A stretch of 64,000 nucleotides of DNA from the human T2T-CHM13v2.0 reference genome, Homo sapiens: the NCBI GenBank assembly GCA_009914755.4, contig CP068257.2, positions 27,776,001-27,840,000 of the forward strand. The letters run 5' to 3'. Every line of letters starts with the position of its first letter. Position 1 is the first letter of the stretch. The position numbers and the translations under genes are program-made. The notes beneath the pieces are model-generated. The model worked only from the letters and a program-made list of their open reading frames with translations, had not been told where the DNA came from and did not search any database. Below, one piece after another: positions 9,220 through 12,640 of this stretch.

Positions 9220-9893
9220 TCTTATGTTATTAAATATTCTTTTAAAAGTTTTTATACTTGAAATAATTATTTATTCACAAATAGTAGAGAGAAGTTTCAT
9301 GTCTCTCCCAGTTGTAACATCTTATATAACTATAGTACAGTGTTACCCATTTTCTCCCAATGGTAACATCTTATATAACTATAGCACAATACCAAAGTCA
9401 GGAAATTGCCGTCAGTACAATATGTGTCATTTTATTACATATATAGATTTGTGTGACCACATCATAGTCAAGACACAGAACTATTCCATTACCATAAACA
9501 TCTCATGCATGCTAACTCTTTATACCCTTATGGTTACTCTATCCACCACCACTCCTGGTAACCACTAATTTTGTTCTCCATCTCTCTATTATTGCTTTGA
9601 GAATGTTATATAAATGCAATCATACAGTACTTGACCTTTAGAGATTGGATTTTTTACTCAGCATAATACCTCTGAGAGCCATCAATATTCTATGACATGT
9701 ACCGCGGTTTCACCATTCCTCCATTGGAGGACATCTCAGTGGTTTCTGGACCTTTGCTATTACCAAATAAAGCTGCTGTGAACATTGTGTACAGGTGTTT
9801 TGTGGGCAGAAGTTTTCATTTCTCTGGGATACATTCTCAGAAATGTGATTTTTGGTTCATATGGTAAATACATGTTTAGTCGTTTATTTTTTT
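9220..9893 (-). mobile_element. Older LINE-1 (L1PB/L1M-like) 3' portion, left part. It is the host element interrupted by the young L1 at 9893-12413.
   Basis: aaccactaattttgttctccatctctctattattgctttgagaatgttatataaatgcaatcatacagtac...ctttgctattaccaaataaagctgctgtgaacattgtgtacaggtgttttgtgggcagaagttttcatttctctgggatacattctcagaaatgtgatttttggttcatatggtaaatacatgtttagtcg is collinear with the antisense older-L1 consensus (...cattttgtttatccattcatcagttgatggacatttgggttgtttcc...gggtcatatggtaactctatgtttaac...). Confidence 0.7.
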
Positions 9894-11161
9894 ATTTATT
9901 TTTTTTTTGAAAGAACAAAACTGTAGATTTTTCTCTTTTTTTCTTTTTTTTTCTTTTTTTATTTATTTTTCTTTTTTTTTATTATACTTTAAGTTTTAGG
10001 GTACATGTGCACATTGTGCAGGTTAGTTACATATGTATACATGTGCCATGCTGGTGCACTGCACCCACTAACTCGTCATCTAGCATTAGGTATATCTCCC
10101 AATGCTATCCCTCCCCCCTCCCCCCACCCCACCACAGTCCCCAGAGTGTGATATTCCCCTTCCTGTGTCCATGTGATCTCATTGTTCAATTCCCACCTAT
10201 GAGTGAGAATATGCGGTGTTTGGTTTTTTGTTCTTGCGATAGTTTACTGAGAATGATGATTTCCAGTTTCATCCATGTCCCTACAAAGGACATGAACTCA
10301 TCATTTTTTATGGCTGCATAGTATTCCATGGTGTATATGTGACACATTTTCTTGATCCAGTCTATCATTGTTGGACATTTGGGTTGGTTCCAAGTCTTTG
10401 CTATTGTGAATAATGCCGCAATAAACATACGTGTGCATGTGTCTTTATAGCAGCATGATTTATAGTCATTTGGGTATATACCCAGTAATGGGATGGCTGG
10501 GTCAAATGGTATTTCTAGTTCTAGATCCCTGAGGAATCGCCACACTGACTTCCACAATGGTTGAACTAGTTTACGGTCCCACCAACAGTGTAAAAGTGTT
10601 CCTATTTGTCCACATCCTCTCCAGCACCTGTTGTTTCCTGACTTTTTAATGATTGCCATTCTAACTGGTGTGAGATGATATCTCATAGTGGTTTTGATTT
10701 GCATTTCTCTGATGGCCAGTGATCATGAGCATTTTTTCATGTGTTTTTTGGCTGCATAAATGTCTTCTTTTGAGAAGTGTCTGTTCATGTCCTTCGCCCA
10801 CTTTTTGATGGGGTTATTTGTTTTTTTCTTGTAAATTTGTTTGAGTTCATTGTAGATTCTGGATATTAGCCCTTTGTCAGATGAGTAGGTTGCGAAAATT
10901 TTCTCCCATGTTGTAGGTTGCCTGTTCACTCTGATGGTAGTTTCTTTTGCTGTGCAGAAGCTCTTTAGTTTAATTAGATCCCATTTGTCAATTTTGGCTT
11001 TTGTTGCCATTGCTTTTGGTGTTTTGGACATGAAGTCCTTGCCCATGCCTATGTCCTGAATGGAAATGCCTAGGTTTTCTTCTAGGGTTTTTATGGTTTT
11101 AGGTCTAACGTTTAAATCTTTAATCCATCTTGAATTGATTTTTGTATAAGGTGTAAGGAAG
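9893..11161 (-). mobile_element. Young LINE-1 (L1PA), 3' segment: ORF2 C-terminal third, 3'UTR and a degenerate poly-A seen as poly-T at 9893-9980.
   Basis: At 9981 the antisense L1 3' end reads attatactttaagttttagggtacatgtgcacattgtgcaggttagttacatatgtatacatgtgcc. Track ORFs 10186-10704(-) and 10723-11292(-) read ...[30 protein letters not shown]... and ...[23 protein letters not shown]..., which is L1 ORF2 C-terminus. Confidence 0.92.
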
Positions 11162-12413
11162 AGAATTTTAGACCAATATCCTTGATGAACATTGATGCAA
11201 AAATCCTCAATAAAATACTGGCAAACTGAATCCAGCAGCACATCAAAAAGCTTATCCACCATGATCAAGTGGGCTTCATCCCTGGGATGCAAGGCTGGTT
11301 CAATATACGCAAATCAATAAATGTAATCCAGCATATAAACAGAGCCAAAGACAAAAACCACATGATTATCTCAATAGATGCAGAAAAAGCCTTTGACAAA
11401 ATTCAACAACCCTTCATGCTAAAAACTCTCAATAAATTAGGTATTGATGGGACGTATTTCAAAATAATAAGAGCTATCTATGACAAACCCACAGCCAATA
11501 TCATACTGAATGGGCAAAAACTGGAAGCATTCCCTTTGAAAACTGGCACAAGACAGGGATGCCCTCTCTCACTGCTCCTATTCAACATAGTGTTGGAAGT
11601 TCTGGCCAGGGCAATCAGGAAGGAGAAGGAAATAAAGGGTATTCAATTAGGAAAAGAGGAAGTCAAATTGTCCCTGTTTGCAGACGACATGATTGTTTAT
11701 CTAGAAAACCCCATCGTCTCAGCCCAAAATCTCCTTAAGCTGATAAGCAACTTCAGCAAAGTCTCAGGATACAAAATCAATGTACAAAAATCACAAGCAT
11801 TCTTATACACCAACAACAGACAAACAGAGAGCCAAATCATGAGTGAACTCCCATTCACAATTGCTTCAAAGAGAATAAAATACCTAGGAATCCAACTTAC
11901 AAGGGATGTGAAGGACCTCTTCAAGGAGAACTACAAACCACTGCTCAAGGAAATAAAAGAGGATACAAACAAATGGAAGAACATTCCATGCTCATGGGTA
12001 GGAAGAATCAATATCGTGAAAATGGCCATACTGCCCAAGGTAATTTACAGATTTAATGCCATCCCCATTAAGCTACCAATGACTTTCTTCACAGAATTGG
12101 AAAAAACTACTTTAAAGTTCATATGGAACCAAAAAAGAGCCCGCATCGCCAAGTCAATCCTAAGCCAAAAGAACAAAGCTGGAGGCATCACACTACCTGA
12201 CTTCAAACTATACTACAAGGCTACAGTAACCAAAACAGCATGGTACTGGTACCAAAACAGAGATATAGATCAATGGAACAGAACAGAGCCCTCAGAAATA
12301 ACGCCGCATACCTACAACTATCTGATCTTTGACAAACCTGAGAAAAACAAGCAATGGGGAAAGGATTCCCTATTTAATAAATGGTGCTGGGAAAACTGGC
12401 TAGCCATATGTAG
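11162..12413 (+). mobile_element. Inverted 5' segment of the same young L1 (ORF2 reverse-transcriptase domain), in the opposite orientation to its 3' segment. This is the arrangement produced by twin priming.
   Basis: Begins agaattttagaccaatatccttgatgaacattgatgcaaaaatcctcaataaaatactggcaaac (L1 ORF2 ...[46 protein letters not shown]...). Ends ...gggaaaactggctagccatatgtag. In L1 coordinates this segment ends about 18 bp before the point where the minus-strand segment begins (cttccttacacc...). Confidence 0.9.
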
Positions 12414-12435
12414 TTGTTTATTTTTTAAAGAATAA
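11269..12435 (+). pseudogene. L1 ORF2p reverse-transcriptase fragment, 388 aa open frame. It is a retrotransposon remnant, not a host gene.
   Basis: The translation contains canonical L1 RT motifs: ...[22 protein letters not shown]..., [12 protein letters not shown] (the YXDD-box equivalent), ...[68 protein letters not shown].... The ORF is truncated at both ends and inverted relative to the rest of the element. Confidence 0.9.
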
Positions 12436-12640
12436 GAAACTGACAAGTCTAAAAAACTGCCCAGTTACATGGTTTAAAAGTAGCTCTCTCATTTTGCATT
12501 CCTGCCACCAAGGTATGACAGTTCTAGTTTCTCCACATCCTTACCAGCATTTGGTGGTGTTACTATTTTTTATTTTTATTGTTCTGATAGGGGTGTATTG
12601 ACATCTCTACATCTCTTCTTGGCCTTATAAATATTCTTTG
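12414..12640 (-). mobile_element. Older L1 host element, right part. It continues the 9220-9893 element after the young L1 insertion.
   Basis: gtttattttttaaagaataagaaactgacaagtctaaaaaactgcccagttacatggtttaaaagtagctctctcattttgcattcctgccaccaaggtatgacagttctagtttctccacatccttaccagcatttggtggtg corresponds to antisense old L1 ...gtttaacttttttgaggaactgccaaactgttttccaaagcggctgcaccattttacattcccaccagcaatgtatgagggttccaatttctccacatcctcaccaacacttgtt. Confidence 0.7.

What the first reader, a model, noticed from the sequence alone, without database searches (positions are those of the whole stretch)
9220..12640. Young L1 with a 5' inversion, flanked by an 11-bp TSD, nested inside an older antisense L1
Two L1PA segments lie head-to-head. 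The 3' segment (ORF2 C-terminus, 3'UTR and tail) is on the minus strand at 9893-11161. The ORF2 RT-domain segment is on the plus strand at 11162-12413. In L1 coordinates the two segments are nearly contiguous, with only about 18 bp (aaagctgaaactggatcc) missing at the junction. The element's 5'-most point sits at the internal junction. This is the exact topology expected from twin priming during target-primed reverse transcription, and is not what a random rearrangement would produce.

The element is bounded by GTTTATTTTTT at 9882-9892 and again at 12416-12426. Both flanks are collinear with a single older L1 (antisense), whose sequence (...ggtcatatggtaa[ct]...gtttaac|ttttt...) resumes exactly after the insertion. 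So this is a textbook nested retrotransposition event with both junctions resolvable by eye.
Basis: partly seen in the sequence, partly recalled or inferred. Interest (0 to 1): 0.5.

Follow-up and report, generated by a model that had tools for sequence, protein, structure and literature searches.

The report
Ordinary 5'-inverted L1 nested in old L1
This is a young primate LINE-1 copy whose front half went in backwards, a common by-product of how LINE-1 copies itself, and it sits inside a much older LINE-1; the description is accurate but the event is ordinary.

Summary
GTTTATTTTTT occurs exactly twice in the 64-kb window, at 9882-9892 and 12416-12426. Between the copies lie two L1 arms in opposite orientation. 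The minus arm (9893-11161) holds the A-rich tail, the 3'UTR and ORF2p residues 952-1275. The plus arm (11162-12413) holds ORF2p residues 528-945, including the RT domain. The outer end of the inverted arm and the inner end of the tailed arm are 18 nt (6 codons) apart in L1 coordinates. The target reads TTTTTT/AAAG, a canonical L1 endonuclease site, with the tail starting at the nick. Removing 9893-12426 restores an uninterrupted older minus-strand L1. This architecture is the one twin priming predicts. The literature puts 5' inversions at about 18-22% of L1 insertions, and nearly half have cDNA ends within 20 bp. The finding is therefore correct but already known. Refinements: the TSD may be 16 bp with one CpG>TpG change; the internal junction has 1-3 nt of microhomology; the tail holds an unexplained 19-nt non-A block; 9220-9500 could not be verified as L1. 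No orthologous empty site could be retrieved.

The parts
9503..9881 (-). Older L1, 3'-side portion (left flank of the insertion). It is homologous to the ORF2 C-terminal region, roughly residues 1188-1219 and beyond.
   Evidence: Local alignment to the young L1's antisense strand over 9680-9866 gives z=11.3, against no signal on the sense strand. Alignments to independent L1 copies at 6100-7000 and 34046-34405 start at 9514 and 9503. There is a weak tblastn hit at 9808-9713. The stretch 9220-9502 was not verified as L1.
9882..9892 (.). Left copy of the target-site duplication, GTTTATTTTTT. Its T-run is the first-strand primer, and the nick lies after 9892.
   Evidence: Exact 11-mer with only two copies in the window. 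The rebuilt target reads TTTTTT/AAAG, a TTTT/A-type endonuclease site as listed in PMC12016303.
9893..9982 (-). A-rich 3' tail of the young L1, about 90 nt. It is interrupted by a 19-nt non-A block at 9909-9927 (sense TCTACAGTTTTGTTCTTTC), followed by A10TAAATA.
   Evidence: Sequence reading and tail dissection. The block is unique in the window.
9983..10185 (-). Young L1 3'UTR
   Evidence: It lies between the ORF2 stop codon (10186-10188) and the tail. It is 98.9% identical to another young L1 3' end at 33077-33349.
10186..11161 (-). Non-inverted, poly(A)-primed arm: ORF2p residues 952-1275 plus the stop codon, with one internal stop at residue 1097.
   Evidence: phmmer against solved ORF2p, E=1e-217, residues 952-1275 in 8uw3_A numbering. 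tblastn gives 96.6% identity.
11159..11161 (.). Internal inversion junction. 1 nt (11161) is certainly shared by both arms. Up to 3 nt (AAG) are shared if codon K527 is AAA.
   Evidence: Codon mapping of both arms. The 3-nt figure depends on my recollection of the L1 consensus.
11162..12413 (+). Inverted, internally primed arm: ORF2p residues 528-945 (RT domain and downstream), with one internal stop at residue 550.
   Evidence: phmmer against solved ORF2p, E=8.6e-279 for 8uw3_A and 3.3e-279 for the best chain 8c8j_A. Pfam RVT_1, E=2.1e-44. tblastn gives 98.1% identity.
12414..12415 (.). TT: either 2 nt of untemplated filler, or part of a 16-nt TSD, TAGT[C/T]GTTTATTTTTT, whose right copy carries a CpG>TpG change.
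   Evidence: Side-by-side junction contexts.
12416..12426 (.). Right copy of the target-site duplication, GTTTATTTTTT
12427..12652 (-). Older L1, 5'-side portion (right flank of the insertion). It is homologous to ORF2p residues about 1111-1153.
   Evidence: tblastn at 12606-12478, E=3.8e-5, and 6.7e-8 in the focused run. Alignment to young antisense L1 gives z=8.3. blastn hits to four other L1 copies.

Best explanation
A single retrotransposition event inserted a 5'-truncated, 5'-inverted L1PA-type LINE-1 into an older, minus-strand L1. The total is about 2.5 kb: 1,252 bp inverted plus 1,179 bp non-inverted plus a tail of about 90 nt.

The steps below are inferred from the anatomy.
1. L1 endonuclease nicked the window's + strand at GTTTATTTTTT/AAAGAA.
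2. The T-run primed reverse transcription on the RNA's poly(A). This produced the non-inverted arm, from the tail back to ORF2 codon 951.
3. The - strand was nicked 11 (possibly 16) nt away before that cDNA was finished.
4. The resulting 3' overhang annealed inside the same RNA near codon 945. If the 16-nt TSD reading is right, this used 3 nt of complementarity (CTA:UAG). It primed a second cDNA running to codon 528, which is the inverted arm.
5. The two cDNA 5' ends were joined at 11161/11162 through 1-3 nt of microhomology. The 18 nt of RNA between the two cDNAs was lost.
6. Gap fill-in produced the TSD.

Shown directly: the architecture, the L1 coordinates, the TSD, the endonuclease site and the collinearity of the flanks. 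Inferred: the order of events. The element is a dead fossil, with two stops and no 5' half, and no function is implied.
For: - TSD: exact, unique and beyond chance.
- Opposite-strand arms map to ORF2p residues 526/528-945 and 952-1275.
- Adding 18 nt restores a gapless, identical ORF2p match across the break.
- If the two fragments were independent, the chance of their L1 end points lying within 20 nt is about 0.7% (simple calculation).
- The arms have diverged equally from L1HS ORF2p: 7 of 417 versus 11 of 324 residues, Fisher p=0.15.
- The tail is only on the non-inverted arm and begins at a TTTTTT/AAAG site.
- The empty-site construct is continuous in L1 coordinates, with no gap at the join against the independent copy at 34046-34405.
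- Literature: this is the stated signature of twin priming (PMC2837659). 5' inversions occur in 18-22% of L1 insertions, and 46% of those have cDNA ends within 20 bp (PMC12016303).
Against: - No orthologous empty site or independent assembly of the locus could be obtained. The TSD is therefore inferred from one allele only.
- No L1 nucleotide consensus was available, so coordinates rest on protein mapping. The 3-nt microhomology and the subfamily call rest partly on memory.
- Complementarity at the internal priming site is absent under the 11-nt TSD reading, where there is instead a 2-nt TT filler.
- The tail contains an unexplained 19-nt non-A block.
- Twin priming is itself a model that has not been directly observed.
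Confidence: 0.93

Rival explanations
1. A conventional 5'-truncated L1 (ORF2 codon about 528 to the tail, all on the minus strand) inserted first. Its 5' 1.25 kb was later inverted by a chromosomal rearrangement that also deleted 18 bp.
For: The same final sequence could in principle arise this way. The arm coordinates do not by themselves give the order of events.
Against: One breakpoint would have to fall exactly at the L1/TSD boundary (12413-12415). There are no inverted repeats at the breakpoints to drive it (by reading). 5' inversions occur at about 20% frequency in de novo and somatic L1 insertions, so they arise during integration.
Confidence: 0.03
2. Two different L1 RNAs, or two separate insertions, produced the arms. 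This would be either priming of both nicked strands by different L1 transcripts or two independent head-to-head L1 insertions.
For: A two-RNA 'dual priming' mechanism has been proposed for related structures (PMC2837659). The arms differ slightly in amino-acid identity, 98.1% against 96.6%.
Against: The arms are adjacent in L1 coordinates to within 18 nt, which has a chance of about 0.7% for independent fragments. The plus arm has no poly(A) tail or 3' end of its own. There is only one TSD pair, and GTTTATTTTTT does not recur at 11161/11162. The divergence difference is not significant, p=0.15.
Confidence: 0.03
3. Assembly artefact: a mis-join of two L1 reads.
For: Young L1s are a known assembly hazard (general knowledge).
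Against: A chance mis-join is not expected to give a precise 18-nt gap in L1 coordinates. It is also not expected to give a matching TSD pair, an endonuclease site at the tail junction, or perfectly collinear unique flanks. A second element with the same architecture lies at 33060-33435.
Confidence: 0.01

Closest known systems
Twin-priming (5'-inverted) L1 insertions, Ostertag & Kazazian 2001, as described in PMC2837659 and PMC12016303
   Same: Two arms of one L1 in opposite orientation inside one TSD pair. Poly(A) only on the non-inverted arm, at a TTTT/A site. The start of the inverted cDNA and the end of the non-inverted cDNA lie within 20 nt of each other, here an 18-nt gap. Short microhomology at the internal junction. 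Arm lengths of 1,252 and 1,179 bp are of the same order as the reported germline medians of 751 and 571 bp.
   Different: Nothing substantive. The arms are somewhat longer than the germline medians, and the tail is interrupted by a 19-nt non-A block.
Human-lineage L1PA subfamilies (L1PA2-L1PA4 range)
   Same: 97-98% amino-acid identity to L1HS ORF2p with no frameshift over 741 codons. The 3' 278 bp differs at only 3 sites from another young copy in the window.
   Different: The 3'UTR reads GATGACGAGTTAGTGG. That is GAG at the position where, from my own knowledge of L1 diagnostics, the active Ta subfamily has ACA. So it is not L1HS-Ta. The exact subfamily could not be assigned without Dfam/Repbase consensuses.
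L1 3' transduction
   Same: A non-A block (TCTACAGTTTTGTTCTTTC) sits between a long A-rich tract and a second, short A-run just before the TSD. This is the layout of a short 3' transduction.
   Different: No AATAAA or ATTAAA hexamer lies within the 35 nt upstream of the putative second cleavage site. No source locus could be searched. The block could instead be a post-insertion change in an unstable tail.

Membership tests
LINE-1 (L1) retrotransposon copy | Encodes ORF2p reverse-transcriptase sequence | tested here: met
   Plus arm against solved human ORF2p, E=3.3e-279 for the best chain 8c8j_A and 8.6e-279 for 8uw3_A. Pfam RVT_1, E=2.1e-44.
LINE-1 (L1) retrotransposon copy | ORF2 C-terminus, 3'UTR and A-rich tail at the 3' end | tested here: met
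   Residues 952-1275 plus stop. About 200 nt of 3'UTR and a tail of about 90 nt.
LINE-1 (L1) retrotransposon copy | Target-site duplication flanking the insertion | tested here: met
   11-nt exact repeat, unique in the window, seen in 0 of 1657 empirical control pairs.
LINE-1 (L1) retrotransposon copy | Insertion at an L1 endonuclease consensus site (TTTT/A) | tested here: met
   The rebuilt target is TTTTTT/AAAG, with the tail starting at the nick. Motif list from PMC12016303.
Twin-priming 5'-inverted L1 insertion | Two arms of L1 in opposite orientation inside a single TSD pair | tested here: met
Twin-priming 5'-inverted L1 insertion | The outer end of the inverted arm is adjacent in L1 coordinates (small gap or overlap) to the inner end of the poly(A)-bearing arm, and the element's 5'-most point is at the internal junction | tested here: met
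   Codon 945 at 12413 next to the TSD, codon 951/952 at 11161, codon 528 at 11161-11163, and an 18-nt gap.
Twin-priming 5'-inverted L1 insertion | Short complementarity between the second-strand overhang and the internal RNA priming site, and microhomology at the internal junction | tested here: inconclusive
   There is 3 nt (TAG) only if the TSD is read as 16 nt with one CpG>TpG mismatch. Otherwise there is a 2-nt filler. The internal junction shares 1-3 nt. The literature notes that microhomology is sometimes absent.
Twin-priming 5'-inverted L1 insertion | Both arms derive from the same RNA (same subfamily and age) | tested here: inconclusive
   Amino-acid divergence from L1HS ORF2p is 7 of 417 against 11 of 324, Fisher p=0.15. 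This is consistent, but nucleotide diagnostics were not available.
Twin-priming 5'-inverted L1 insertion | An empty orthologous or allelic site with one copy of the TSD | not testable with these tools
   No primate genomes are available. Pattern scans of the microbial and metagenome collections and exact-product look-ups found nothing.
Nested insertion in an older L1 | Both flanks belong to one L1 copy, in the same orientation and at consecutive L1 coordinates across the excised insertion | tested here: met
   Flank z-scores of 11.3 and 8.3 against antisense L1 only. The alignment is continuous across the join. There is no gap at the join against the independent copy at 34046-34405. Right-flank hits to four further L1 copies.
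L1HS-Ta (currently active human subfamily) | ACA trinucleotide at the 3'UTR diagnostic site (from my own knowledge, not from a tool) | tested here: not met
   The window reads ...GATGACGAGTTAGTGG... in sense orientation, at about 10065-10080. This is GAG, so the element is not Ta.

The most novel reading that the evidence does not exclude
The 19-nt non-A block in the tail (9909-9927), followed by a second short A-run, could be a short 3' transduction. That would tag the progenitor L1 locus. Together with the element's low divergence, it could mark a recent, possibly lineage-specific or polymorphic insertion whose source element could be traced.
Probability: 0.2. Interest if true: 0.12.

Novelty: already known. 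Interest (0 to 1): 0.06.

Why it matters
It matters very little. The locus is a clean example of a twin-priming L1 insertion, with both junctions, the endonuclease site and the nested host element all resolvable, so it could serve as a teaching case or a benchmark for repeat annotators. About one in five L1 insertions has this structure and the genome holds thousands of them. Nothing here challenges current models or opens a new question.

Tried and rejected
1. Orthologous or empty-site search. Exact-pattern scans for left flank plus TSD, TSD plus right flank, and the empty-site join found 0 hits in metagenome contigs (2 scans) and genome contigs (1 scan). Those collections are microbial, so the result is uninformative.

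2. Exact-product look-ups. Four look-ups of the two junction-spanning ORFs, with GTG/TTG and ATG starts, found nothing on record.

3. Longer TSD or target-derived tail. The distal tail (9894-9923) looks like a diverged copy of the TSD plus the downstream target. I rejected this. The informative core gives p=0.38 against shuffles, and 7.6% of window tiles score as well. The nominal p=0.026 for the whole block comes mostly from the T-runs. The block also has no similarity to the same region of other L1 copies. A nick at ...AAACTG/ACAAG would also not be an endonuclease site.

4. Standard blastn of the young L1 against the window did not detect the old flanking L1. Sensitive local alignment, tblastn and comparison with other old copies were needed.

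5. L1PA as the reference for seamlessness. The old L1 has about 34 bp more than L1PA between the well-aligned blocks. I used the intermediate-age copy at 34046-34405 instead.

6. The Ostertag & Kazazian 2001 paper (PMC311219) is not held. The model is cited through PMC2837659 and PMC12016303.

7. The ORF2p identity is already unambiguous, and those searches could not give locus-level orthology.
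Full report
**What is in the sequence.**
The window is primate-type repeat-rich DNA, about 40% GC, with many L1 fragments and an SRP/Alu-like hit.

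GTTTATTTTTT lies at 9882-9892 and 12416-12426 and occurs nowhere else in the 64 kb on either strand. The exact repeat cannot be extended on either side. An exact repeat of 11 nt or more between the two 40-bp junction windows arose in 7 of 2000 composition-matched shuffles. It arose in 0 of 1657 equally spaced window pairs. The duplication is therefore real and not a by-product of the T-richness.

**Mapping the two arms.**
No L1 nucleotide consensus was available, so I used the solved human ORF2p sequences as the coordinate system.
- The plus arm reads in a single frame with one stop. It matches ORF2p residues 526-945 (8uw3_A numbering) at E=8.6e-279 (best chain 8c8j_A, E=3.3e-279). True L1 identity starts at E528, which is 11161-11163.
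- Pfam places RVT_1 on the plus arm.
- The reverse complement of 10189-11160 reads in one frame with one stop and matches residues 952-1275 at E=1e-217. The ORF2 stop codon, about 200 nt of 3'UTR and an A-rich tail follow.

By codon phase, the plus arm ends on the second base of codon 945, at 12413. The minus arm begins on the third base of codon 951, at 11161. Exactly 18 nt are therefore missing.

It yields ...LAICRKLKLDPFLTPY..., gapless and identical to solved ORF2p across the break.

**Topology.**
- The 5'-most L1 point, codon 528, is at the internal junction.
- The 3'-most point of the inverted arm, codon 945, abuts the right TSD.
- The tail abuts the left TSD.

[quoted passage not shown] If the two fragments were unrelated, the chance that those two particular ends lie within 20 nt in a 6-kb element is about 0.7%.

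The two arms have diverged equally from L1HS ORF2p: 7 of 417 residues against 11 of 324, Fisher p=0.15.

**Target site.**
Joining the flanks rebuilds ...CATGTTTAGTC GTTTATTTTTT/AAAGAATAAG.... The tail begins immediately after the T-run on the strand that carries the cDNA. The first-strand nick is thus TTTTTT/AAAG, a canonical TTTT/A L1 endonuclease site (motif list).

The junction contexts also allow a 16-nt TSD, TAGT[C/T]GTTTATTTTTT. Its single mismatch is a CpG>TpG difference, and its first three bases (TAG) coincide with the last three L1 bases. Under that reading the second-strand overhang ends in CTA-3' and can pair with UAG in the L1 RNA. That would be a 3-nt internal priming microhomology. 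Under the 11-nt reading, 12414-12415 (TT) is untemplated filler. I cannot tell these readings apart without an empty site.

At the internal junction, base 11161 is shared by both arms. Up to 3 nt (AAG) are shared if codon K527 is AAA, which is how I recall the consensus.

**Host element.**
Standard blastn with the young L1 did not detect the flanks. More sensitive methods did.
- Each flank alone aligns to the young L1's antisense strand and not to its sense strand. The left flank scores 90 against a shuffle mean of 34.7 (z=11.3). The right flank scores 64 against 31.2 (z=8.3).
- tblastn places the right flank on ORF2p residues 1111-1153 and the left flank on about 1188-1219, both on the minus strand.
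- An empty-site construct with 9893-12426 removed aligns continuously across the join.
- Against an independent, intermediate-age L1 copy at 34046-34405, the join falls between consecutive reference bases: TTTTTT|AAAGAAT against TTCTTT AAGGAAT.
- The right flank also hits four further L1 copies in the window.

The host is therefore one older L1 on the minus strand, verified over about 9503-9881 and 12427-12652. The stretch 9220-9500 gave only weak AT-rich matches and remains unverified as L1.

**Age and subfamily.**
- Amino-acid identity to L1HS ORF2p is 97-98%, with two stops and no frameshift in 741 codons.
- The 3' 278 bp differs at only 3 sites from another young L1 in the window.
- The 3'UTR reads GACGAGTTAG, so it carries GAG where, from my own knowledge, the Ta subfamily carries ACA. 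The element is not L1HS-Ta.

I place it in the L1PA2-L1PA4 range. This is an inference, because no consensus library was available.

**Oddity in the tail.**
In sense orientation the tail reads A9GA5TAAATA7GA9GA7GAGA5 - TCTACAGTTTTGTTCTTTC - A10TAAATA - TSD. TRF showed that TTTATTTTTT recurs just inside the tail. The following GAAAGAACAAAACTG resembles the sequence downstream of the target.

I tested whether the distal tail is a copy of the target region, and the evidence does not support it. The informative core gives p=0.38 against shuffles, and 7.6% of window tiles score as well. The block has no similarity to the same region of other L1 copies. The block may be a short 3' transduction or a later change in an unstable tail. 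Deciding between these needs a genome-wide search.

**Comparison with what is known.**
5' inversions are a recognised hallmark of L1 integration. They are found in 18.4% of germline and 21.9% of somatic L1 insertions. In 46% of inverted insertions the two cDNA ends lie within 20 bp of each other. Insertions also tend to land in elements of their own type (PMC12016303). This locus fits all of those norms.

The same 64-kb window holds a second element of the same architecture at 33060-33435, consistent with how common the structure is.

**What could not be done.**
I could not retrieve an orthologous empty site or any independent copy of the locus. Three exact-pattern scans and four exact-product look-ups of junction-spanning ORFs returned nothing. 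The collections on offer are microbial or metagenomic.

**Verdict.**
Twin priming is the best explanation, with confidence of about 0.93. The rivals are post-integration inversion, two RNAs or two insertions, and mis-assembly, and each is unlikely. The finding is an accurate description of an already known and very common kind of event, so interest is low.

Noticed in passing
window 33060-33435: A second head-to-head young L1. A poly-T tract and the L1 3' end lie on the minus strand (about 33060-33349, 98.9% identical to the focal element). They abut an 85-bp plus-strand piece (33351-33435, ORF2p residues 1122-1149). The gap between the arms is about 300 bp in L1 coordinates, and the candidate TSD is only 4-6 bp ([A]TCTGA / AGCTGA). 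It sits inside an unrelated interspersed repeat. It is probably another twin-priming event with a larger internal deletion.
   Followed up: partly
window 9909-9927 (within tail 9893-9982): A 19-nt non-A block (sense TCTACAGTTTTGTTCTTTC) interrupts the focal L1's A-rich tail and is followed by A10TAAATA. It may be a short 3' transduction or a tail rearrangement. Its resemblance to the target sequence is not significant.
   Followed up: partly
window 9304-9339 and 9353-9388: A 36-nt direct repeat at 92% identity with 49-bp spacing (TCTCCCA..GTAACATCTTATATAACTATAG.ACA). It lies in the stretch left of the verified old L1. This looks like a local tandem duplication, and the stretch could not be assigned to L1.
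   Followed up: partly
window 5036-6051, 6324-6771, 29810-30426, 34046-34405, 51904-52088: Further L1 3'-end fragments of various ages. Identity to the focal element is 88%, 69%, 91% and 74% for four of them, and the others are detectable only at protein level. The region is L1-dense.
   Followed up: no
window 36284-36431 (-): An Rfam Metazoa_SRP hit barely above the gathering score (70.9 against 70 bits). It spans model positions 1-299 in only 148 nt. It is most likely an Alu or 7SL-derived repeat and not an SRP RNA gene.
   Followed up: no
window 12895-12927 and 47357-47420: (GA)n / (TC)n dinucleotide microsatellites, picked up as mutual blastn hits.
   Followed up: no
PDB chain 9d2f_J (not in the window): The L1 ORF2 C-terminal translation (query residues 142-209) matches residues 286-353 of a deposited 'Cilia- and flagella-associated protein 61' chain at E=3.9e-12. 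This suggests an L1-derived segment in that deposited sequence.
   Followed up: no
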